Origin: Candidatus Saccharimonadota bacterium
GTDB lineage: Bacteria; Pseudomonadota; Gammaproteobacteria; Enterobacterales; Enterobacteriaceae
DNA length: 32,000 bases
Assembly (NCBI GenBank): GCA_002688505.1
Contig: CP024013.1
Location: 120,001 to 152,000 of the forward strand
Direction of reading: 5' to 3'
The notes beneath the pieces were generated by a model. It saw only the letters and a program-made list of their open reading frames with translations. It did not search any database and had not been told where the DNA came from. A program made the position numbers and the translations under genes. Below, in pieces: positions 9,162 to 30,397 of this stretch. Positions within the stretch are counted from its first letter, which is position 1. Each line of letters opens with the position of its first letter.

Positions 9162-9233
9162 GCGAATATTATATAAAGGTTATTATATTAGCCTTCCAAG
9201 CTAAAGATGCGGGTTCGAATCCCGCTATTCGCT
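9162..9233 (+). tRNA. tRNA-Gly (anticodon UCC)
   Basis: Acceptor GCGAATA/TATTCGC, anticodon stem TTAGC/GCTAA, loop CTTCCAA, T arm GCGGG-TTCGAAT-CCCGC, discriminator U. The D arm is very AT-rich. No encoded CCA. Confidence 0.85.
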
Positions 9234-11809
9234 TAAAAATATTTTTTAAAAGTAATATATATTTTATCTTTTATTAAATATGGTTTGATATATTTTTTTT
9301 TATTTTTAATTTTTGTAAAATTTATTTCTTTAATAAAATATATATTATTAGTAAATTTATTTAATAAATATTTATTATTTATTAAAATATTAATTTTTAT
9401 TAAATTTAAGTTAATTATAATTAGATTATTTATCTTTAGTTTAATTTTTCTTAAATAAACTATTATATTTTTTATTATTTTAAATGTTTTTATATAATTT
9501 TTATTTTTAAATTTGTAATTTATATTTGGTATTTTTTCTAATAAAATTGATTTTTTATTATTTTTTTTATATATAGATTTAATTTTATTTCATATATATT
9601 CAGTTATAAATGGTATAATTGGATGTGATAATATTAATATATTTTTATAAATATATATTATAGTATTTATTGAAAAATTATTTTCTTTTTTATAATATAA
9701 AGTTTCTTTAAATAATTCTATATATCAATCACTAAATTTATTCTTTAAAAAATTTTTTAATAAATTACATAATAAATCAAATCTAAATAATTTTATTGAT
9801 TTTTTATATTTTTTTGTAAATTTATTAAAATTATTTATTATTCAGTAGTCTATTAATAATATTTTGTTACTAAAATAGTTTTTTTTTTTGTAATTTTTAT
9901 AAAAATATATTATATATTTTGATAAATTTCATAATTTATTACAATAATTATAACTATCATTTAATTTTTTAAAATTAAAATTTATTTTTAATTTTAAATT
10001 TGACATTGAAGCTAAAGTATATCTTAATATATCTGTACCATATTTTTTTATTCCATTAGGAAAATTTTTTTTTGTATCTAAAATAATTTTTTTTCTATTT
10101 TTAATATTTATTAAATTTTTTATTCTTTTTTTGATTAGTTTTTTTTGTGATATACCTTTTATAATGTCGTTTGGATCTATTACATTACCAATAGATTTAG
10201 ACATTTTATTTCCATTTTCATCTGTTATTAATCCTGTTATAAATACTTTTTTAAAAGGTATTATAGATTTTTTTTTTTTTTTTATTAGAAATAATGTTAT
10301 CATTATCATTCTTGAAATTCAAAAAAAAATTATATCAAATCCACTAACTATTACATTTACTGGATGAAAATATTTAAATAATTTTTTTTTTTTAGGTCAT
10401 CCTAAACTAGCAAATGTTCATAATGATGATGAAAATCATGTATCTAAAATATTTTTATCTTGTTTTAGTTTTATATTTTTTAATTTATATTTTTTAATTA
10501 TATATTTTTTATTATATCCTATATATTTATTTTTATTATTGTCATATCAAATTGGTATTTTATGTCCTCATTTTATTTGTCTTGATAAACATCAGTCTTT
10601 TATATTTTTCATTCATTTAAAATATAAATTTTTATATTTAGATGGTATAAATTTTATTTTATTTTTTTTAACATATAGAATAGCTTTTTTTGATATATAT
10701 TTAGTTTTTAAATATCATTGTTTTTTTAATATATATATAATTTTATTATTATTTTTAGTATTAAAAAAAATATTTTTTTTAATTTTCTTAATTTTAAATA
10801 TATGATTATTTTTTTTTAGTATTTTAATAATTTTTTTTTTATTTAAATTTTTATATTTATATAAAATATTTTTATGTATTTTTTTACCTTTGTATGTATA
10901 AAAATCAGGTTTATTTTTAATTAATCCGTTTTTGTTAAATATATTAATTATATTAAATTTATATTTTTTATTTATATTAAAATGTTTTTTATTATGACCA
11001 GGAGTTATATTTAAACAAAAATAATTATTATATGTTTTAATTTTTTTATTTAAAATTATTTTTAATTTAATATTATTAATGGGATTAATAACATATTTAT
11101 TTATTAATTTTTTTTGTTTTTTATTTTTTGGATTTATTAATATGTATGTATTAGCTAATATATTTTCTGGTTTTGTAGTAGGTATTATTATATAGTTATT
11201 TTCATTAATTATTTTATATTTTATATAATATTTTTTAGTTGTTTTTTTTTTTTTATATATTTCTAAATCAGATAAAACTGTTTTAGTTTTTTTATCTCAA
11301 TTAATAATATTATATGATTTATATATTAATTTTTTTTTATATAATTTTATAAATGCTTTATTAACTGAATATGAAAAATTTTTATCTAAAGTAAAAGATG
11401 TTTTATTTCAATAAATACTACTTCCTAATATTTTAGTTTGATTAAAAATTTTTTTTTTATATTTTTTTTTTCATTTTCATAGTTCTTTAATTAATTGTTG
11501 TTCTGAATATTTTTTTTTAATATTTTTTAAATAATTTTCTACTATTATTTGAGTTGATATTCCTGCGTGATCTATGCCCATAGTTCATATAGTATTAAAA
11601 CCAGACATTTTTTTATATCTTATTATAATATCCATAATTGTTTGTTGATAAGCATGTCCTATATGTAGATTTCCAGTAATATTTGGAGGTGGCATTATTA
11701 TAGAGAAATTTTTTTTATTAAATATTTTTTTTGGGTTAAATAGTTTATTTTTTATTCAAAATTTGTATATTTCTTTTTCTTTTTTTATTATATCTAATAA
11801 TTTTAACAT
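9233..11809 (-). CDS. valS: valine--tRNA ligase (C-terminal coiled-coil shortened)
   Basis: I translated the minus strand codon by codon with TGA=Trp. It gives 858 aa with no TAA/TAG and is collinear with E. coli ValRS ([73 protein letters not shown]). It has 19 in-frame TGA, mostly on conserved Trp. TAA at 9233-9235. Confidence 0.93.
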
Positions 11810-13263
11810 TATATTATTTTATTATAATTTTTTATTCTATTTGTTAAAAATTTAATTAATAAGTAAACAGTTCTACCAGTAGCTCCATTTTTATTTCATG
11901 CAGTACCTGCTATATCAAAATGTGCTCATTTATATTTTTTTACAAAATTATTTAAAAAACAAGCTGCATTTATTGTATCTGAATAATTATTTTCACTACA
12001 ATTTTTTAAGTCCGCTATTTTAGATATTAAATATTTATTATATTTATTATATAATGGAAGTTCTCAAATATCATCATTTGATTGTTTACTTGCTTTTATT
12101 AATTCTTTTGATAAATTTTTATTATTAGTTATTAATGCACTAATGTTATTACCTAATGCAATTAAACAACATCCAGTTAATGTAGCTATATCTATTACTA
12201 TTTTAGGTTTATATTTATTTATATATGATAATGTATCACATAATAGTAATCTACCTTCAGCATCTGTATTAATAATTTCAACAGTTTTACCTGATAATGT
12301 TTTTATAATTTCTCCCGGTTTTGTAGATTTACTATCTATTATATTTTCTGCACATGATAATATAGCTATAATATTTAGTTTTAAATTTAGTTTATTTATT
12401 ATATACATTATTCCTCAAATAACAGCTGCTCCTGACATATCATATTTCATTTCATGCATATTATTTGAGTGTTTTAAAGATATACCTCCTGAATCAAATG
12501 TTATACCTTTTCCTATTAATATTATAGGTTTTTTAGATTTTGGGTTATTAAAATATTTTATTTTTATCATTTTAATTTTATTTTTAGATCCTCTATTAAC
12601 TGATAAATATGCATTCATACCTATTTTTTTCATTTTTTTTTTATTTAGATATGATATTTTAATATTTTTCCCATTTATATATTTTTTAGTTTTATTAAAA
12701 ATGTAATTAGAATTACATATATTAGGAGGTGTATTACATAAGTCTCTTGTTTTTTTTATTCCATTAGAAATTAATAAACTATTTTTAATAGATTGTTTAG
12801 ATTTATTTTTTTGTTTATATTTTATTTTGAAATATATTAATTTTTTTTTATTTTTTTTTTTTTTAGTTTTAAATTTTAAAAATTTATATGTTTCATATTC
12901 TATGATATTAATAAAATTAAATATTTTTCAATATATATTTTTGAATTTTATATTTTCTAAAAAAACTAAAATATTATTATAATATTTTTTTTTAATTATT
13001 TTAATAGTTTTAATTATTAATTTTTTAAAAATATTTTTATTAATTTTTTTATTATTAAATTTTATTAAATATATATTTTTGTTATTATTTAATATTTTAT
13101 TAATTTTTAATTTATTAAATAATTTTTTTTTAATTTTTGTTTTTTTTTTTTTTATTTTTTTATAATTTTTATTAAATTTATTATATTTATTATTTATAAA
13201 AATTATAATACAATCATATATTTTTATATTTTTATTTATATTATATTTTAATTTATATTTCAT
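11809..13263 (-). CDS. pepA: leucyl aminopeptidase (M17 family)
   Basis: Track ORFs 12928..13263, 12415..12633 and 12064..12408 share one frame and join through TGA codons. Motifs: TRDLCNTPPNICN, GKGITFDSGG, MKYDMSGAA, NTDAEGRL, WAHFDIAGTAW. Its TAA (11811-11809) overlaps the valS ATG (TAATG). Confidence 0.88.
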
Positions 13264-13775
13264 TTCTATTATTAATTAATTTATTATTATTTAATTTATT
13301 AATATAATTTTAATTATTATAATATAATATATTAATTTATATATTATTTAATTATATATAATTTTATTTTAAATTTAAAATATTTTTTTTTAAATAGAAT
13401 ATTTTGTTAATATTAAATTTTGTTTTAAAATTTATATTATTTGTAATATTAAATAAATATTAAAAGTTTAATTATATTAAATATAATTAATTATAATAAT
13501 TTTATGATATTAAAAAAATAATTTAAATATTTATTTTATATAAAATATAATATTTTAATATATATAATTAAATTATATATATAATATATTATAGAAAATT
13601 TTATAAAATTATATATAAAATTTATCTAAAATTAAATATATATAAAAAATTATAATAATTTAAAATAATAAATTAATAATTTTAATAAAATAATTATGTT
13701 TTATTAAATATTTTAATGTTAATTAAATTAATTTTTTATGTAAATATTTATAGAAATTTAAAATTTTATATAAAT

Positions 13776-13849
13776 CAGGGGTAGAAGGAATTGAACCCTC
13801 AACCTATGGTTTTGGAGACCATCGTTCTACCTAATTAAACTATACCCCT
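13776..13849 (-). tRNA. tRNA-Trp (anticodon CCA)
   Basis: The reverse complement is AGGGGTATAGTTTAATTAGGTAGAACGATGGTCTCCAAAACCATAGGTTGAGGGTTCAATTCCTTCTACCCCTG. It is orthologous in layout to E. coli tRNA-Trp. Anticodon loop CTCCAAA. D stem GTTT/GAAC, so position 24 is A. No encoded CCA. Confidence 0.92.
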
Positions 13850-13863
13850 AAATATATAATTAT

Positions 13864-13936
13864 TAGGTCTAAGTGGGGTTGAACCACTGACCTCACCCTT
13901 ATCAGGGGTGTGCTCTAACCTCTGAGCTATAGACCT
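13864..13936 (-). tRNA. tRNA-Ile (anticodon GAU)
   Basis: The reverse complement folds with acceptor AGGTCTA/TAGACCT, anticodon stem CACCC/GGGTG, loop CTGATAA and T-loop TTCAACC. No encoded CCA. Confidence 0.93.
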
Positions 13937-16098: not shown

Positions 16099-17431
16099 TT
16101 ATTTTTTATATGTTTTAAATATTATGTTTCAATTATCATAATTCTTAGGATTTCCATTTTTTGTAATAAATATATTAGGACATAATATAGGTTTTTTATT
16201 ATAAAATATTATTGGTATAAATTTTCTTTTTCATGGTAATATTTTATATTGTTGTCAAATTTTTTTTATTTTTTTTTTTTTTTTACTGTTTAAAATTTTA
16301 ATTTTATCTTTTATTTGAAATTTTATATAAATTTTTTCTCATTTAAATGGTTTTCTAACTTTATTTATATTTTTATATTTGCTTATTTTTTTATTATTAA
16401 TATATAATAAACCAATTTTATTAGGTAAATTTATATAGTTTTTATTTTTTTTTCATAAAAATTTTTTCTTTTTTAATTCTTTAATTTTTTTATCTATAAA
16501 TAATTTATTTTTATATTTATATATTATAAATTTTTTAAAATGTATTTGAAAATATATTTTATATTTATTTTTTAAAATATTATATAATAATAAATTTGTT
16601 AATTTATATGAAATTATATTTTTATTATTTTTATATATAAATTTTCTTAAAATTATTATAATTTCTTCTTTATTTAATTTTATTAAATATTTAAAATTTA
16701 TATTATTATTATTTATATCTATACTTTTTTTTATTTTTTTTTTAATTAATTTATTAATTAATTCATATTGTTTTTTACATATATTTGAATTTCTTATAAC
16801 TGATTTTATAAAAAAAGGTCATTTTTTAATTATTAATGGTAAAATTACTAATCTTAAGTAATTTCTATCATAATTTATATCTTTATTACTTAAATCTTCT
16901 ATTCATTTAATATTATTTTTTAAAGCATATTTAATAATATATTTTTTTTCAATATTTAAAAATGGTCTTATAATAATAATTTTATTATTAATTTTTTTTT
17001 TTTTTTTTTATTCCTATTAATCCTTTTATACCGCAACCTCTTTTAAGTGATAAAAATATTGTTTCTATTTGATCATTTTTATGATGTGCGGTTAATAAAA
17101 TTTCATTTTTTTTTATATATTTTTTATAAATTTTATATCTTTTTATTCTTAATTTATGTTCTAAATTAGATTTATTTTTTATATATATATTTTTTTTTAT
17201 TAAATGTATTTTATTTATTTTACAAAATTTAATACATTTTTTTTCTCATTTTTTAGATATATATAAAATATTATGATTTATATGTATTGCTCTAATATTA
17301 ATATATTTTTTAAATTTATTTAAAGAATAAAGTAATACTGTTGAATCTACTCCTCCACTATATCCTACAAGAAAATTTTTATATTTATTAATTAAATTTT
17401 TTATAATATTTTCAATAAGTTCAATATACAT
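16099..17431 (-). CDS. tilS: tRNA(Ile)-lysidine synthase, interrupted by a frameshift inside an A18 run (slippage-rescued gene, pseudogene or homopolymer sequencing error)
   Basis: The N-terminal frame (from ATG 17431) has PP-loop SGGVDS and LLTAHHKNDQIETIFLSLKRGCGIKGL, then terminates just after the poly(A) run. The downstream part (IIIIRPFL.., WIEDLSN..NYDRNYLR, ..IWQQYKILPWKRKFIPIIFY) is open in a different frame from 17007 to TAA 16099-16101. Total length is 1333 nt (3n+1). Confidence 0.85.
16992..17009 (-). repeat. 18-nt homopolymer (T18 on plus strand, A18 on the tilS coding strand)
   Basis: Counted directly: an a followed by 9 t (16991-17000), then 9 t followed by an a (17001-17010). 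Confidence 0.95.
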
Positions 17432-18006: not shown

Positions 18007-18864
18007 ATGAATAATTCTTTAAAATTAAGAAATAAAAATATAGGTGTACATATAAAAAATAGTTTGTGTTTATATAAAAATGTTATTTTTGCTAATAAAT
18101 TAAATATAAGTGCATTTTCTTTTTTTATAGGTAGTCCATTAAAATGAAATAAAAATATTAGTATTAATGATATTAATAAATTTAAATTTTTTTGTAAAAA
18201 ATTTAATATTAATAAAAATTATATAATTCCTCATAGTAGTTATTTAATTAATTTAGGTTCTCCTATTAATAATAAATTATGAAAATCATTACATTTATTA
18301 AAAAAAGAAATATTTATATGTAATAGATTAGGATTAAAATTAATAAATTTACATATAGGAAGTCATTTAAATTTAATAACAGAAAATAAGTGTATTGATA
18401 TTGTTATTAATTCTTTAAATTATATAATTAAATATACAGAAAATATTATATTAGTATTAGAAAATTCTGCTGGTAATGGTAATTATATAGGTTATAATTT
18501 AGATCAAATTTATAATATTATATGTTCTATAGATAATAAATCTCGTATAGGTGTTTGTATAGATACTGGACATGCATTTGCATCTGGATATGATTTACGT
18601 GATTTTAATAGTTGTGATATTTTTTTTAATATTTTTAATAATAAAATAGGTTTTAATTATTTAAGAGCATTACATTTAAATGGTAGTAGATGTAAATATT
18701 TTAGTAAACAAGATAAACATAGTATTTTATTAAATAGTTATTTAGGTAATAATATTTTTTATTGGATTATGAGAAATAATTATTTTAATAATTTACCAAT
18801 TATTTTAGAAACTGTTAATCCAAATTTATGATTAAGTGAAATAAATTGATTATATTCTATTTAA
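18007..18864 (+). CDS. nfo: endonuclease IV
   Basis: Absent from the ORF track because 4 TGA codons split it. Checked codon by codon: 285 aa, collinear with E. coli Nfo (PHSSYLINLGSP, NLHIGSH, LENSAGNG, SRIGVCIDTGHAFASGYDL, LHLNGS, PIILETVNPNLWLSEINWL). TGA at 18145, 18829 and 18847 fall on E. coli Trp positions. Confidence 0.92.
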
Positions 18865-19229: not shown

Positions 19230-20237
19230 TTATAAAAATTTTATTTTTATTTTTTTATTTATTTGATACTTATTTATTAAAACTCATTTTCTAAACTTAA
19301 AATAAGTATATGGAATTAATCCTGATAAAAACATAATAGCTATTGTTATAGGATAACCATAATGTAAATTTAATTCAGGTATATATTTAAAATTCATACC
19401 ATATATTGATGATATTAATGTAGGTGGTAAAAATATTACAGATATTATTGAAAATATTTTTAATATACTATTTTGTTCAATATTTAAAAAACCCATAGCT
19501 GATTGCATTAAAAAATTGATTTTTTGAAATAAAGATTCGTTATATGTTAATAATGATTCTATGTCTGTAATTATTTCTTTAGATAATTTTTTTTGTATAT
19601 CATTAAAATTTATTTTACGAATTAAAAATTTTATAGCTCTTTTAGTGTCTATTAAACATATTCTAATTTTTGATGTCATATCTTCTTTTTTAGATAAAAT
19701 TGATATTGATATATTAAATTCTTGATTATTTTGATATTTTAATATTATAGAAGTTAAATTTTCTAAATCATTTGAAATTATTTCTATTTCATTTGCTAAT
19801 TGTTCTATTTTAATTTCAAATAAATCTAATAATAAATTGTATATATTTTTATATTTTGTTTTTTTGTTTATAATTTTATATTTACATATTTTGAATGTTA
19901 TTAATTCTTTTTCTCTTAATGAATATAATTTGTTTTTATTTAATATAAAAGCTACTGTATATATGTTCATATAATCTTCTATATTTTTTTCTACAAAAAA
20001 AGAATGTATATGTAATCCATTTTTATCTTTAAAAAATCTTGCTGAATATTCTATATTAGATAATTCTAAATTTTTAATTATTTTTTGGTTAAATGTTTTT
20101 TCTATATATATTTTTTCTATATTTGATGGATTAATTAAATCTATTCAAAAATTTCTTTTTAATTTTTCTTTTTTTATATTATTTAATGTTTTTATTTTTT
20201 TGAATATTTTATTTTTATATTTAAATATATTTAACAT
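19230..20237 (-). CDS. corA: magnesium/cobalt transporter CorA
   Basis: Track ORF 19284..19970 extends in both directions through TGA codons. The N-terminus (NFWIDLINP, SARFFKDKNGLHIHSFF) and the core (LLLDLFEIKIEQLANEIE, NESLFQKINFLMQSAMGF, YGMNF) are collinear with E. coli CorA. The terminal FRKW matches E. coli RKNW. About 17 further codons follow before TAA at 19230. Confidence 0.9.
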
Positions 20238-22305: not shown

Positions 22306-23922
22306 ATGAAAAAAAAAATATTAGTAACATGTGCTTTTCCTTATTCAAATGGTGATATACATTTAGGTCATATATTAGAACATATTTATGCGGATATTTG
22401 GGTAAGATATCAAAAATTGATTGGTAATAAAATTTATTTTATATGTGCTGATGATTCACATGGTACAGCTGTATTATTAAAATCTATCAATATTAATATT
22501 GATCCTAATTTAATGATTAATAATATTTTATTGGATCATAAAAATGATTTTTTAAAATTTAATATTTTTCATGATTATTATTATAAAACTCATAGTAAAT
22601 ATAATTATATTTTTTTAAGAAATATTATTGATAAATGTTTTGTTAAAAATATTATTTATAATAAAAATATTTTACAATATTATGATAATAAAAAAAATAT
22701 TTTTTTACCAGATAGATATATAATTGGTACTTGTCCTAAATGTTTAAGTAAAAAACAGTATGGAGATAATTGTGTTATTTGTGGTAGTATATATAATACA
22801 TTAGATTTAATTAATCCTATTTCTTTAGTTTCTAAAAATAAACCAGTTTTAAAATATTCTAATCATTTATTTTTAAATTTAAATATTTTTAAGCAAAAAA
22901 TAATAAATTGAATTAATAGTATTAATTTACAAGAAAATGTTTTTAATCAATTATTAAGTTGATTAAAAAATGATTTAATTGATTGAAATATTTCTAGAGA
23001 TAGTCCATATTTTGGTTTTAAAATTCCTTCTAAATTTATAAAAGATAAATATTTTTATGTTTGGTTTGATGCTTTATTAGGTTATATAAGTACGTTTTAT
23101 AAGTTTTGTAAAATTAATAATAATTTTTTATTTGATAAATTTTGATTTAATGATAGTAATTATGAATTATATCATTTTATAGGTAAGGATATATTATATT
23201 TTCATGGTATATTATGACCTGCTATTTTAGATATATTAAATTTTAGAAAACCAACTAATATAATTGTACATGGTCATGTTTTAATTAATAATTATAAAAT
23301 GTCAAAATCATATGAAAATTTTATTAGTGTAAAGAAATGATTAAAATATTATGATTCTGATAGTTTAAGGTATTATTTTGCTAGTTTATTATCAAATAAT
23401 ATTAATGATATTAATTTATGTTTAATAGAATTTGTTAATAAAATTAATTCTGATATTGTTAATAAATTTATTAATATATGTTCTAGGATTTCTAGATTTT
23501 TAGAAATTTATTTTAATAATATTTTATCTAATAAATTATGAAATGAAAATTTTTATAATTTATTTGTTCAAAAATTTGATATAATTTGTTATTATTATTT
23601 AAATTTTAATTATTATAAAGTTATAATTGAAATAAATATTTTATTAGATTTAGTTAATAAATGTATTACAGATAATAAACCTTGACTATGAACAAATAAT
23701 TTTAAAAAATTAAGGAATTTACATATATTTTGTACTACCATAATAAATATTTTTAAATTAATTTCTATATATTTAATGCCTATTATACCTAATATTATTA
23801 AAAAAATAGAATTTTTTTTAAATACTAAATTAAATTGAAAAAATTTTGATAAACCTTTACTGAATCATAAAATTTTAAAATATGAAAATATTTATAATCG
23901 TATTAAATTATATAATTTTTAA
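22306..23922 (+). CDS. metG: methionine--tRNA ligase (core enzyme, C-terminal tRNA-binding domain absent)
   Basis: Checked triplet by triplet: 538 aa with about 10 TGA=Trp. Motifs: [11 protein letters not shown], zinc knuckle [45 protein letters not shown]. Ends at ..[10 protein letters not shown], where E. coli MetRS continues for about 130 aa. Confidence 0.93.
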
Positions 23923-24197: not shown

Positions 24198-25391
24198 ATG
24201 AAAATTTATATGGTAGGTGGTGCTGTAAGGGATAAATTATTAGGTTTAAATATTAGAGATAGGGATTGATTAGTAGTTGGTTCTACATATAAAAATATGA
24301 TTAATTTAGGTTATAAACCTATAGGTAATTTTTTTCCTGTTTTTATTAATCCTATAACAAAAGAAGAGTATGCTTTAGCTAGAAAAGAGAAAAAAAATGG
24401 TGTTGGTTATAAAGGTTTTTATTGTAGTTTTTCTTCAGATGTTACTTTAGAAGAAGATTTGTTTCGTAGAGATTTAACAATTAATTCTATTGCAATGGAT
24501 AAAAATGGTAAATATTTTGATCCTTATAATGGTATTAATGATATTAGAAATAGAGTTATTAGAAATGTTTCACATTATTTTATAGATGATCCAATAAGAT
24601 TACTAAGAGTAGCAAGATTCTATTCATATTTATTAAATTTTAATTTTTATATTGAAAATAATACATTTAATTTAATGAAAAAGATTGTTATTAATGGTGA
24701 ATTATCTTATATAACTCCTGAACGTATTTGAATAGAATTTAAAAAAGTATTGAATAATAAAAATATATATTTTTTTTTTAGTATTTTAAATAAATGTAAT
24801 GCTATTAATATAATTTTTCCTGAATTAAATAATATTTTTAATAATATTAAAATTAGATATTATTTTTATTTGATTTTTAAAAAAATAGATTATTTAAATT
24901 ATAATATATATATTAAATTTATTTTTTTTTGTTTTTTTTTTAATTATACTATATTTTCTAGAAAATATTTTATATATAGTGATTTTATTTTGAATAATGT
25001 AAAAAAATTTTGTATAAAATTTAGATTACCTAGTAAATATTTTTTTTATTTTAAAAAAATATTTTTAGTTATAAAGTTAATATATTTTTTTAATAATAAA
25101 AATTTATTTAATTTTTTATTAGATATATTTTATAAATTAGATATATGAAGAAATACTAATTTAATTTTTAATTTATATAATATATTAATTATATTAAAAT
25201 TTTTTAATTTAATTAATATTAATATAATTTGTTTTTTAGAAAATAATTTATTTAAAATATATAAATTATTAGTAAATTTAAAAATTAAAGATTATATTAA
25301 TTTTAATAGTTTAAAAGGTAAGTGTATAAAAAAAAATATATATAAGTTACGTTTATTAACTTTAAAAAAATTTTTTAAATTGAATTTCTAA
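24198..25391 (+). CDS. cca: CCA-adding tRNA nucleotidyltransferase (HD domain degenerate)
   Basis: [30 protein letters not shown] (TGA on the conserved Trp), EEYALARKEKK, RRDLTINSIA and DPIRLLRVARF match E. coli Cca. Track ORFs 24297.. and 24750.. share the frame. 397 aa ending in TAA at 25389. The C-terminal half has no recognisable H..HD..D residues. Confidence 0.88.
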
Positions 25392-28582: not shown

Positions 28583-30397
28583 ATGAAAAAAAGTATTAAG
28601 TTAAAAATTATTTTATTAATTTCAGAAAATAAAAAAAAAGGTTATATAACATATTCTCAAATTAATGATAGGTTATCTTTTTTAAGTAAAATTAGTTCTT
28701 TACAATATAAAAAAATTATTAAAATAATAAATAATTTTGGTATTGCTGTTATAAAAGATAAAAATATAGATAGATTAATTTTTTGTAAAAAAAAAAATAT
28801 TATTTCTAATAATAATTGTTCAGATTTTTTAGATAATAATTTATTAAAATATGAAAATAATGTTAATAAGATTACAGATCCTGTTAGGATGTATATGAAA
28901 GAAATGGGTAATGTTGAATTATTAACCAGGGAAGGTGAAATTAAAATAGCTAAAAAAATTGAATATAGTATTAATAAGATTCAGTTTAATTTAGCCAAAT
29001 ATTTTAAGTCTATTAAATATTTTTTAGATCAATATAATTTAGTTAAACTTAATATTATTAAATTATCTGATTTAATAGTTGGATTTGTTGATTATAAATT
29101 TAATTATAATTTTATTTTTAATAAAAAATATAATGATTTTTATAAAGTAAAATATATTGATAATTTTAATAATACTAATAATATTAATAATTTTAAAAGA
29201 ATTATAAAAAATAAGTTTGATTATTTAAGTTATCAATATAATAATTTATTAAAATTTATTAATAAATATACAATAAATCATCCTTATTCTAAGTGTGAAC
29301 TAAATAAATTAATAAATATTTTTATGACATTTAAATTAGTTCCAAAACAATTAAATCATTTATTATTTAAAATTAAAAATATTTTTAATAAAATAAATTT
29401 AATTGAAAAAAAAATAATGTATTTATGTGTAAAAAAAAGTTTAATGCCTAAAGATATTTTTATATCTTTATTTTATAAATATAATTATAGTTTTAACTGA
29501 TTTTATAAAGCTATTAATATGAATAAATTTTGATCATTAAATTTATTAAAATTTAAAGATAAAATATTTAATAAAATTAATAATTTAATTATTATACAAG
29601 ATAAAATAGGTTTAAATATTTTAAAATTTAAGAAAATAAATATTAATATATTAAATAATGAAATTAAAACTAAAAATTCTAAAAGAGAAATGGTAGAAGC
29701 TAATTTAAGATTAGTAATTTCTATAGCTAAAAAATATACTAACAGAGGTTTACAATTTTTAGATTTAATTCAAGAAGGTAATATAGGTTTAATGAAAGCT
29801 GTTGATAAATTTGAATATAGAAGAGGATATAAATTTTCAACATATGCTACTTGATGAATACGTCAGGCTATTACTAGATCTATAGCTGATCAAGCTAGAA
29901 CAATAAGAATTCCTGTACATATGATAGAAACTATAAATAAATTAAATAGAATTTCTAGACAGTTATTACAAGAGATTGGTAGAGAACCTACTCCAGAAGA
30001 ATTATCAAATAAAATGTTAATGTCAGAGGATAAAATTAGAAAAATTTTAAAAATTTCTAAAGAACCAATATCTATGGAAACACCTATTGGTGAAGATGAA
30101 GATTTACATTTAGGTGATTTTATAGAAGATACATCTTTAGAATTGCCATTAGATTCTGCTACTACTGAAAGTTTGAAATCTGTTACTAATAATATTTTAT
30201 CTAGTTTAACTCCTAGAGAAGCTCAAGTTTTAAAAATGAGATTTGGTATTGATATGAATAGTGATCATACTTTAGAAGAAGTAGGTAAACAATTTGATGT
30301 TACTAGAGAACGTATTAGACAAATAGAAGCAAAAGCATTAAGAAAATTACGTCATCCTAGTAGATCTGAAATTTTACGTGGTTTTTTAGATGATTAA
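28583..30397 (+). CDS. rpoD: RNA polymerase sigma factor RpoD (sigma-70)
   Basis: Track ORFs 28538..29500 and 29921..30397 share the frame and join via 4 TGA, including tandem TGA TGA in TYATWWIRQ. ATG 28583 gives the same 19-residue spacing to GYITY as in E. coli. Regions 2-4 are almost identical to E. coli RpoD. Confidence 0.95.

What the first reader, a model, noticed from the sequence alone, without database searches (positions are those of the whole stretch)
13776..13849. tRNA-Trp keeps a CCA anticodon in a genome where nearly all Trp codons are UGA, and carries the Hirsh-suppressor state A24
**Seen in sequence.** The tRNA-Trp gene has anticodon loop CTCCAAA (C34 C35 A36), not UCA. By my approximate hand count the window has about 75 in-frame UGA Trp codons, and I noticed only about 3 UGG (18766, 22398, 23062). 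The D stem reads G10-T11-T12-T13 / G22-A23-A24-C25, so pair 11:24 is U-A.

**Established knowledge.** In E. coli tRNA-Trp this pair is U11:G24. The single change G24A (the Hirsh suppressor) lets the unchanged CCA anticodon read UGA through a C:A mismatch at the wobble position.

**Inference.** UGA decoding here may rely on a naturally Hirsh-like tRNA-Trp, possibly with a C34 modification, plus loss of RF2, rather than on an anticodon change. AT mutational bias alone could also produce A24, and A24 may be ancestral in the lineage.
Basis: partly seen in the sequence, partly recalled or inferred. Interest (0 to 1): 0.85.

Follow-up and report, generated by a model that had tools for sequence, protein, structure and literature searches.

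The report
Hirsh-type tRNA-Trp in Stammera symbiont
A tiny beetle-symbiont genome (Candidatus Stammera capleta) that spells tryptophan almost only as UGA keeps one tRNA-Trp with the ordinary CCA anticodon; this tRNA carries the D-stem base (A24) that makes E. coli tRNA-Trp read UGA, but standard-code relatives carry it too, so it looks like a permissive pre-condition, not the switch.

Summary
**Observation: confirmed.**
- tRNA-Trp(CCA) lies at 13776-13849 on the minus strand, with U11:A24, A9 and a 5-bp anticodon stem.
- The window has 66 in-frame TGA codons against 3 TGG. No gene ends in TGA.
- 46 of 56 aligned TGA codons are TGG in a standard-code relative.

**Organism.** The window is not from Burkholderiales. 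It belongs to Candidatus Stammera capleta (Enterobacterales), and its tRNA-Trp is an AT-shifted copy of E. coli trpT, which has U11·G24. Several other Enterobacterales symbionts keep G24, so A24 here is the literal Hirsh change.

**What is already published.** Stammera keeps the CCA anticodon, has no tRNA-Trp(UCA), and has mostly lost prfB (2023-2026 papers). No paper in the held library links Stammera to A24 or the Hirsh suppressor.

**Main caveat.**
- All 13 distinct Stammera tRNA-Trp sequences I sampled have A24. That includes three lineages that still use UGG and the standard code.
- Two other standard-code AT-rich symbionts also have A24.
- A24 therefore predates the recoding and is not sufficient for it.
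- Every code-4 lineage adds a further tRNA change: a 9-nt D loop, as in this window, or an unpaired 27·43.

**Best reading.** Hirsh-type near-cognate decoding, permitted by A24 and unmasked by RF2 loss.

**Rating.** Interest is moderate. Novelty: a new member of a known kind.

The parts
13776..13849 (-). tRNA-Trp gene, anticodon CCA, the only Trp tRNA seen. E. coli-trpT-like backbone with A1-U72 and G73; no encoded 3' CCA.
   Evidence: ARAGORN. Rfam RF00005 at 69.2 bits. Sequence. Across 18 related tRNA-Trp genes the cloverleaf is 99.5% paired and 12 pairs show compensatory changes.
13813..13815 (-). Anticodon C34-C35-A36. C34 is at 13815.
   Evidence: Direct reading. The anticodon loop CTCCAAA is invariant in all 18 aligned sequences.
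13825..13825 (-). A24, the Hirsh-suppressor state. It pairs with U11 at 13839.
   Evidence: Direct reading. Alignment column 25 of A2 is A in all 13 Stammera sequences and G in E. coli, Pantoea carbekii, Arsenophonus and Buchnera (Periphyllus). The 11:24 pair is UA in 14 rows and UG in 4.
13832..13832 (-). Extra D-loop nucleotide (A17a), which makes a 9-nt D loop.
   Evidence: Alignment A2. The insertion is present in 8 of 9 distinct code-4 Stammera tRNA-Trp sequences. It is absent from the 3 code-11 Stammera, from E. coli and from the other symbionts.
13864..13936 (-). tRNA-Ile(GAU), the upstream neighbour in the same orientation. The Ile-Trp gene pair is conserved in all Stammera loci.
   Evidence: ARAGORN.
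24198..25391 (+). cca, the CCA-adding tRNA nucleotidyltransferase. It is needed because this tRNA-Trp gene does not encode its 3' CCA.
   Evidence: Table-4 translation. The orthologue in relatives carries PF01743 PolyA_pol and PF12627.
16099..17431 (-). tilS, the tRNA-Ile lysidine synthetase and the only C34-modifying enzyme seen in the window. It is split by a frameshift in a poly(A) run near 16988. It matters only for the rival idea of a C34 modification.
   Evidence: Three-frame translation. Orthologues of 429-444 aa carry PF01171 and PF11734.
22306..23922 (+). metG, an example of Trp codon usage: 10 in-frame TGA and 2 of the window's 3 TGG codons (22399, 23062).
9233..11809 (-). valS, with 19 in-frame TGA and no TGG.

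Best explanation
The window comes from a code-4 lineage of Candidatus Stammera capleta, the extracellular pectin-digesting symbiont of tortoise beetles (Enterobacterales).

**What the tRNA does.** Its single tRNA-Trp keeps the CCA anticodon and has to read both UGA (about 95% of Trp codons) and UGG. UGA is most likely read as a near-cognate codon through a C34·A mismatch at the third codon position.

**Two things that help this reading.**
1. The D-stem pair is U11:A24 instead of the enterobacterial U11·G24. This is the same G24A change as the E. coli Hirsh suppressor, which speeds acceptance of the tRNA on UGA without touching the anticodon.
2. There is no RF2 to compete for UGA.

**Inferred order of events.**
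1. G24->A arose first, probably by AT-biased drift, because it is already present in Stammera lineages that still use the standard code.
2. RF2 was then lost or weakened, so UGA was captured by the leaky tRNA.
3. AT pressure then converted UGG to UGA.
4. Further tRNA changes may have tuned efficiency: a 9-nt D loop in this clade, and an unpaired 27·43 in another.

**Shown:** the sequence states, the codon usage, the phylogenetic distribution, and the polarity relative to E. coli-type tRNA-Trp.

**Inferred:** that A24 increases UGA reading in this tRNA, that C34 is unmodified, and the order of events.
For: **The tRNA and its states.**

**Codon usage.**
- 66 TGA against 3 TGG, and no TGA stops.
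- 46 of 56 aligned TGA codons are TGG in code-11 Stammera.

**Organism.**
- The best ProS hits are about 40 genomes of 212-326 kb, followed by Buchnera and Annandia.
- Synteny is conserved.
- The matching records are titled Candidatus Stammera capleta.

**Ancestral state.**
- E. coli trpT has U11·G24 in 5426 of 5426 genomes.
- G24 is kept in Pantoea carbekii, Gullanella, Arsenophonus MAGs, Buchnera (Periphyllus), and the Heteropsylla and Trixagus symbionts.

**Distribution in Stammera.**
- All 13 distinct Stammera tRNA-Trp sequences have CCA plus A24.
- The cloverleaf is maintained, with 12 compensatory pairs.
- No tRNA with a UCA anticodon occurs in any sampled locus.

**Literature.**
- 49 Stammera genomes have tRNA-Trp(CCA), none has UCA, and prfB is present in only 15 (PMC13462651).
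- Reference Stammera is prfB-negative with trnW CCA (PMC10540940).
- G24A lets E. coli TrpT read UGA by accelerating forward rates and stabilising a bent tRNA (PMC11805395; PMC13092985).
- C34 is retained in every lineage although 35% of the G/C positions of this tRNA have drifted to A/T. This argues that the CCA anticodon is under constraint and in use.
Against: **A24 is not specific to recoded lineages.**
- Three code-11 Stammera have it: CP144774, CP144771 and CP144777, with TGG far outnumbering TGA.
- A standard-code Buchnera (Mollitrichosiphum) and a Donacia piscatrix symbiont also have it.
- Code-11 Stammera still end some genes in TGA. With RF2 present, A24 therefore does not abolish termination.

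**A24 or C9 is common elsewhere.** 2414 of 3438 bacterial 4-bp-stem tRNA-Trp genes carry A9C and/or G24A.

**Context differs from E. coli.** The Hirsh effect was measured in the E. coli tRNA. This tRNA differs from it at about 20 other positions and has an extra D-loop base.

**No direct data.** Nothing here or in the held literature shows UGA reading, aminoacylation or modification for this tRNA. The prfB status of this particular genome was not tested.
Confidence: 0.55

Rival explanations
1. A24 is an incidental product of AT mutational bias and contributes little. UGA is read because RF2 is absent, so any near-cognate tRNA-Trp(CCA) eventually wins at a vacant codon. Alternatively, other changes in the tRNA are the real enhancers: the 9-nt D loop, A27-U43 in place of C27-G43, or changes in the ribosome or EF-Tu.
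For: - A24 occurs in code-11 Stammera, in a standard-code Buchnera and in a Donacia symbiont.
- 15 of 43 G/C positions of E. coli trpT are A/T in this tRNA, and G24->A turns a wobble pair into a Watson-Crick pair.
- What separates the code-4 from the code-11 Stammera tRNAs sampled is not A24. It is a D-loop insertion (8 of 9 distinct code-4 sequences) or a G27·A43 mismatch (the ninth).
- Unpairing 27:43 is experimentally known to raise UGA reading.
Against: - G24 is retained in several AT-rich Enterobacterales symbionts: Buchnera (Periphyllus) at 20% GC locally, and Arsenophonus MAG loci at 13-18% GC. Drift to A is therefore not automatic.
- G24A is the best-documented single change that makes this very tRNA backbone read UGA.
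- The window's own tRNA has a fully paired 5-bp anticodon stem, so the 4-bp-stem mechanism does not apply to it.
Confidence: 0.27
2. C34 of the mature tRNA is chemically changed so that it pairs with A. Possible routes are C-to-U editing, or a lysidine-like modification by the TilS enzyme encoded 2.2 kb away. The gene sequence would then understate the decoding capacity.
For: - tilS is conserved next to proS in every Stammera locus and is present in the window.
- C34-to-U editing of tRNA-Trp for UGA decoding exists in trypanosome mitochondria (title and abstract of PMC8677022, listed).
- C34 is strictly conserved despite strong AT pressure.
Against: - No deaminase or other candidate enzyme was seen.
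- TilS is needed anyway for AUA decoding in an AT-rich genome, so its retention says nothing about tRNA-Trp.
- From my own knowledge, not tested here: lysidine at position 34 would block UGG reading, and it would probably disturb recognition by TrpRS, which uses C34.
- The window's tilS carries a frameshift.
- No data of any kind bear on modification.
Confidence: 0.1
3. A second, cognate tRNA-Trp(UCA) exists elsewhere in the genome, on a plasmid, or is imported, and it does the UGA decoding.
For: Only 32 kb of this genome was examined here.
Against: - Published surveys found no tRNA-Trp(UCA) in any of 49 Stammera genomes.
- None was found in roughly 20-kb syntenic loci of 10 further Stammera genomes.
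- Stammera lives extracellularly, according to the abstract of the Paleocene-origin preprint. tRNA import is therefore unlikely (inference).
Confidence: 0.03

Closest known systems
E. coli Hirsh suppressor, trpT(G24A) (Su9)
   Same: - Same tRNA backbone. The window tRNA aligns along its whole length with E. coli trpT, and it shares A1-U72, G73, A9, the D-stem U11/U12 and an identical anticodon loop.
- Same base change (A24 opposite U11).
- The CCA anticodon is unchanged.
- The expected effect is the same: reading UGA as Trp through a C·A mismatch.
   Different: - It is a natural, fixed allele and the only Trp tRNA of the organism, not a laboratory suppressor working beside a wild-type copy and RF2.
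- It must decode about 95% of Trp codons as UGA.
- It differs from E. coli at about 20 other positions: an extra D-loop base, U13·G22, G26, and A27-U43.
- Function is untested.
- The same A24 also sits in standard-code relatives.
[quoted passage not shown]
   Same: A near-cognate CCA tRNA is the sole UGA=Trp decoder in a tiny, AT-rich, code-4 symbiont, with no UCA tRNA.
   Different: - The window tRNA has a paired A27-U43, a 5-bp stem, and it carries A24. That family is defined as lacking A24.
- The Zinderia tRNA-Trp is a different sequence with C11:G24 and an A27/C43 mismatch.
- One other Stammera clade (CP144819, CP144850, CP144822) does have G27·A43 in addition to A24.
Cognate tRNA-Trp(UCA) of Mycoplasmatales, Hodgkinia and Nasuia
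   Same: Serves a UGA=Trp code in a reduced genome that lacks RF2.
   Different: The anticodon here is CCA, not UCA. Decoding is near-cognate rather than cognate.
Candidatus Providencia siddallii (PSAC), an early-stage UGA reassignment with trnW(CCA)
   Same: An Enterobacterales symbiont with a CCA tRNA-Trp reading in-frame UGA. The published model invokes distal tRNA mutations that allow A-C mismatches.
   Different: - PSAC keeps a prfB gene that is interrupted by UGA, and only about 20% of its genes carry UGA.
- The window shows near-complete replacement of UGG by UGA.

Membership tests
Bacterial tRNA-Trp (Rfam RF00005, Trp isoacceptor of E. coli type) | Cloverleaf fold detected by covariance model and by ARAGORN | tested here: met
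   RF00005 at 69.2 bits against a gathering score of 29. ARAGORN calls tRNA-Trp. In 18 homologues, 99.5% of cells are paired and 12 pairs are compensatory.
Bacterial tRNA-Trp (Rfam RF00005, Trp isoacceptor of E. coli type) | Anticodon CCA and discriminator G73 (the TrpRS identity set, from my own knowledge) | tested here: met
   C34 C35 A36 at 13815-13813 and G73 at 13776. Both are invariant across Stammera.
Hirsh-type (G24A) near-cognate UGA-reading tRNA-Trp | A at position 24 opposite U11, with the CCA anticodon unchanged | tested here: met
   U11 (13839) pairs with A24 (13825). Column 25 of alignment A2.
Hirsh-type (G24A) near-cognate UGA-reading tRNA-Trp | A24 is derived from an ancestral U11·G24 in the same tRNA lineage | tested here: met
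   G24 is found in E. coli (5426 of 5426 genomes) and in 8 other Enterobacterales symbiont lineages. Polarity is inferred from these outgroups; no formal ancestral reconstruction was done.
Hirsh-type (G24A) near-cognate UGA-reading tRNA-Trp | A24 goes together with UGA being read as Trp | tested here: inconclusive
   All code-4 Stammera have A24. So do 3 code-11 Stammera, a standard-code Buchnera and a Donacia symbiont.
Hirsh-type (G24A) near-cognate UGA-reading tRNA-Trp | Demonstrated insertion of Trp at UGA by this tRNA, dependent on A24 | not testable with these tools
   Needs a reporter assay or in vitro translation.
[quoted passage not shown] | Top anticodon-stem pair 27:43 unpaired, 7-nt loop, no A9C and no G24A | tested here: not met
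   The window has an A27-U43 Watson-Crick pair and carries A24. The definition is taken from PMC13092985.
Cognate opal-decoding tRNA-Trp(UCA) | U at position 34 | tested here: not met
   C34 in the window and in all 13 Stammera sequences.
Genetic code 4 genome (UGA = Trp) | In-frame UGA at conserved Trp positions, and UGA not used as a stop | tested here: met
   66 in-frame TGA. 46 of 56 aligned TGA codons correspond to TGG in a code-11 relative. 24 of 24 stops are TAA or TAG. Table-4 ORFs total 9447 aa against 6038 aa under table 11.
Genetic code 4 genome (UGA = Trp) | Release factor 2 (prfB) absent | not tested
   No RF gene lies in the window or in any held locus. The literature reports prfB lost in the reference Stammera and in 34 of 49 genomes. 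This genome was not checked.

The most novel reading that the evidence does not exclude
Stammera may preserve living stages of an 'ambiguous intermediate' route to a new genetic code.

1. The enterobacterial tRNA-Trp first acquired the Hirsh change G24A by AT drift while RF2 was still present. The extant code-11 Stammera would represent this stage, with latent UGA leakiness.
2. This leaky tRNA made loss of RF2 survivable.
3. Different code-4 clades then improved the same CCA tRNA by different second-site changes: a D-loop insertion in the window's clade, and an unpaired 27·43 plus A19 in the CP144819 clade. None of them ever changed C34, because TrpRS needs it.

If this is right, the classic laboratory suppressor mutation would be the natural first step of a codon reassignment.
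Probability: 0.3. Interest if true: 0.75.

Novelty: new member of a known kind. Interest (0 to 1): 0.5.

Why it matters
**The open question.** How Stammera reads UGA without a UCA anticodon is unresolved.
- Recent surveys list Stammera as a code-4 organism with only a 5-bp-stem tRNA-Trp(CCA), and they offer no mechanism.
- The exact Hirsh substitution in an E. coli-type tRNA-Trp gives a concrete hypothesis. It can be tested directly in E. coli with existing UGA reporters.

**What the comparative result adds.** A24 is already present in the standard-code basal Stammera lineages.
- It argues that a permissive tRNA came before loss of RF2.
- It identifies second-site tRNA changes that track the recoded clades.

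**Limits.** The phenomenon itself (CCA retained in a UGA=Trp genome) is published. A24 is not rare in bacteria. All of the functional part is inference.

Tried and rejected
  - The published Zinderia tRNA-Trp differs: C11:G24 and an A27/C43 mismatch.
  - Nasuia is published as lacking ATP-synthesis genes (abstract), while the window carries the atp operon.
  - The protein hits and record titles point to Stammera.
- **blastn of the window tRNA against E. coli genomes:** no match at E<=1e-3, because the query is too short and too diverged. It was replaced by an exact search with the E. coli trpT sequence.
- **Single-sequence RNA folding:** it does not recover the cloverleaf (z = -1.1). This is uninformative for an AT-rich tRNA, so covariation was used instead.
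  - The one genome-contig scan was therefore restricted to E. coli-like D arms with an 8-nt D loop and no encoded CCA.
  - That scan cannot see tRNA genes that encode CCA or have 9-nt D loops. The sample of standard-code symbionts is therefore small and not random.
- **Sister lineage of Stammera in the ProS tree (P0041):** the only contig stops before the tRNA region.
- **Release-factor genes in all held Stammera loci:** none found, so prfB presence could not be mapped onto the tRNA states.
- **The 4-bp anticodon-stem explanation:** rejected for this window, because A27-U43 is paired. It may apply to the CP144819 clade.
- **Base following in-frame UGA:** A 33, T 20, G 9, C 4. This simply mirrors genome composition and was not pursued.
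- **The NJ tree of ProS:** it places the CP144819 code-4 clade apart from the other code-4 genomes. Compositional bias and long branches make it too weak to claim two independent recodings.

Full report
**1. The observation**

ARAGORN finds nine tRNA genes in the window. One is tRNA-Trp(cca) at 13775-13850 on the minus strand. Rfam's tRNA model matches 13776-13849 at 69.2 bits.

Read 5'->3', the gene is AGGGGTATAGTTTAATTAGGTAGAACGATGGTCTCCAAAACCATAGGTTGAGGGTTCAATTCCTTCTACCCCTG.
- The anticodon loop is CTCCAAA (C34 C35 A36 at 13815-13813).
- The D stem is G10-C25, U11-A24, U12-A23, U13·G22. A24 is at 13825 and U11 at 13839.
- A9 is unchanged.
- The anticodon stem is a full 5 bp, with A27-U43 at the top.
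- The discriminator is G73, and no CCA is encoded.
- The D loop has 9 nt, one more than in E. coli.

The window is 15% G+C.
- Reading frames are far longer under table 4 than under table 11: 9447 against 6038 aa in ORFs of at least 100 aa.
- In 24 genes there are 66 in-frame TGA and 3 TGG codons (at 18763, 22399 and 23062).
- All 24 stops are TAA or TAG.
- Of 56 window TGA codons that align to a standard-code relative, 46 align with TGG.

**2. The organism**

That is wrong.
- The published tRNA-Trp of Zinderia insecticola is a different molecule, with C11:G24 and an A27/C43 mismatch (supplement of PMC13092985).
- The window's AtpD is found only on a Logan contig that also carries ptsI and HPr.
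- The best ProS matches are about 40 unnamed NCBI genomes of 212-326 kb, followed by Buchnera, Annandia and other Enterobacterales symbionts.
- Ten of those genomes share the window's gene order around proS, valS and tilS, including the tRNA-Ile/tRNA-Trp pair. Eight of them also keep the atp operon at this locus.
- The genome-contig collection titles these records 'Candidatus Stammera capleta' (CP144774, CP144771, CP144777, CP144822, CP144850).

The window therefore comes from a Stammera lineage. The closest sampled genome is CP144843, with 78% ProS identity. Stammera is the tortoise-beetle digestive symbiont, a gammaproteobacterium.

**3. What is already known**

For Stammera the headline fact is published.
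- Manzano-Marin et al. 2023 tabulate Stammera as prfB-negative, trnW CCA, 15.4% GC, with 62% of genes carrying UGA (PMC10540940).
- A 2026 survey of 49 Stammera genomes reports tRNA-Trp(CCA) in all, tRNA-Trp(UCA) in none, and prfB in 15 (PMC13462651).
- The 2026 NAR paper on 4-bp anticodon stems lists Stammera among code-4 bacteria with an ordinary 5-bp-stem tRNA-Trp(CCA) and offers no mechanism for it.
- The gTranslate preprint reports a basal Stammera clade of five genomes that still use code 11 and keep prfB.
- No paper in the held library connects Stammera with the Hirsh mutation or position 24.

**4. Is A24 derived?**

The window tRNA is plainly an AT-shifted E. coli-type trpT (alignment).
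- The E. coli sequence, with U11·G24, is present in 5426 of 5426 complete E. coli genomes.
- I ran one scan of 185,579 species-representative genomes for E. coli-like tRNA-Trp D arms without an encoded CCA. It returned 99 loci.
- Among the Enterobacterales symbionts in that set, G24 is kept in Pantoea carbekii, Gullanella, three Arsenophonus MAGs, Buchnera (Periphyllus), and the Heteropsylla and Trixagus symbionts.

A24 in Stammera is therefore the literal Hirsh substitution in the same tRNA lineage. The literature states that G24A lets E. coli TrpT read UGA with an unchanged anticodon, through faster forward rates and a stabilised bent tRNA (PMC11805395; PMC13092985).

**5. Is A24 tied to the code change?**

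It is not.

| Group | Genomes sampled | Codon usage (TGA vs TGG) | tRNA-Trp |
|---|---|---|---|
| Standard-code Stammera | CP144774, CP144771, CP144777 (312-314 kb) | 3 vs 61, 0 vs 27, 1 vs 18; some genes end in TGA | CCA, U11:A24 |
| Code-4 Stammera | all other sampled genomes | e.g. 60 vs 3, 45 vs 1, 62 vs 10, 56 vs 3, 48 vs 0 | CCA, U11:A24 |

(Codon counts; tRNA states.)

- All 13 distinct tRNA-Trp sequences, from both groups, have CCA and U11:A24.
- A24 also occurs in a standard-code Buchnera (Mollitrichosiphum, 419 kb) and in the Donacia piscatrix symbiont (459 kb).
- Relative to E. coli trpT, 15 of 43 G/C positions are A/T in the window tRNA. A G->A change at a wobble pair is therefore unremarkable under AT pressure.
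- G24 nevertheless survives in some equally AT-rich contexts.
- A24 and/or C9 is also common among bacterial tRNA-Trp genes generally (2414 of 3438 four-bp-stem genes).

A24 thus predates the recoding and is not sufficient for it.

**6. What does differ between code-4 and code-11 Stammera tRNAs**

In alignment A2:
- The three code-11 Stammera have an 8-nt D loop and five Watson-Crick pairs in the anticodon stem.
- Eight of the nine distinct code-4 sequences, including the window's, have a 9-nt D loop. Six of these also have G30·U40.
- The ninth (CP144819/850/822) keeps 8 nt but has G27·A43 unpaired and A19 in place of G19.
- The cloverleaf is otherwise under clear constraint: 99.5% of cells are paired, 12 pairs show compensatory changes, and 0 of 500 shuffles reach this.
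- The anticodon loop is invariant.

These second-site changes are candidates for tuning UGA reading. That is inference.

**7. Mechanism**

*Most likely (about 0.55).* The sole tRNA-Trp(CCA) reads UGA as a near-cognate codon.
- A24 makes this reading efficient enough, and the absence of RF2 leaves it without competition.
- A24 is a pre-existing permissive state, and RF2 loss is the switch.

*Main rival (about 0.27).* A24 is incidental. RF2 loss, other tRNA changes, or both, do the work.

*C34 modification or editing (about 0.1).*
- It cannot be excluded from DNA.
- tilS lies 2.2 kb away, but it is needed anyway for AUA decoding, and in the window it carries a poly(A) frameshift.

*A hidden tRNA-Trp(UCA).* It is contradicted by published surveys of 49 genomes.

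*Untested here.* The prfB status of this particular genome. No release-factor gene lies in any held locus.

**8. Verdict**

The Hirsh-type reading is the simplest mechanism, and it appears not to have been proposed for Stammera.
- The lineage assignment was wrong.
- The CCA-retention phenomenon is already published.
- A24 is shared with standard-code relatives, so it is at best necessary or permissive, not decisive.

I file it as a new natural member of a known kind (Hirsh-type near-cognate suppression) with moderate interest. Its value lies in making an open question directly testable, and in the order-of-events inference from the code-11 Stammera lineages.

Noticed in passing
window 13264-13775: A 512-bp spacer between pepA and tRNA-Trp with only 2.5% G+C and no ORF. 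Most Stammera relatives have efp (179-190 aa) at this position, so efp appears to have been lost from this locus in the window's strain. CP043983 also lacks it here.
   Followed up: partly
window 16099-17431 (minus strand), break near 16988: tilS is split into two reading frames at a long poly(A) run: an N-terminal 147 aa, then the remaining roughly 300 aa in another frame. Relatives have an intact tilS of 429-444 aa. The cause could be a sequencing error, a pseudogene, or a gene rescued by transcriptional slippage.
   Followed up: partly
L126, L185, L197 (code 11) versus window, L122, L124, L128, L165, L229-L234 (code 4): Within Stammera, the code-4 tRNA-Trp genes carry second-site changes that the code-11 lineages lack. 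These are a 9-nt D loop, G30·U40, a shortened variable-loop/T-stem region, or G27·A43 together with A19. In a ProS neighbour-joining tree the G27·A43 clade (CP144819/850/822) branches apart from the other code-4 genomes. This hints at more than one route to UGA reading.
   Followed up: partly
L233 (CP144815, 244 kb) and L234 (CP043989, 213 kb): In the smallest Stammera genomes sampled, mnmG is followed directly by the tRNA cluster and valS. The whole atp operon and pepA, both present in the window, are missing from this locus.
   Followed up: no
L130-L228 (genome-contig scan): The U11·G24 wobble within the identical D arm TAGTTCAATTGGTAGAGC is not an enterobacterial peculiarity. It recurs in Brachyspira, Opitutales and other Verrucomicrobiota, Aminicenantes, Caldisericia and several Clostridia (87 of 99 hits). 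This suggests that the wobble pair is itself conserved.
   Followed up: no
L168 (Enterobacterales endosymbiont of Trixagus turgidus): Its tRNA-Trp(CCA) has G24 but a C27/A43 mismatch, a 4-bp anticodon stem of the Blastocrithidia-like type. The one ORF in this locus shows TGG and no in-frame TGA. This is a possible standard-code carrier of the other UGA-reading tRNA state.
   Followed up: no
Phage-encoded tRNA-Trp-like genes are therefore common. They were not examined.
   Followed up: no
window 10131-10901 (+), 12143-12706 (+), 19516-19974 (+), 28642-28998 (-): Long table-4 ORFs lie antisense to, or overlap, valS, pepA, corA and rpoD. They are most likely spurious.
   Followed up: no
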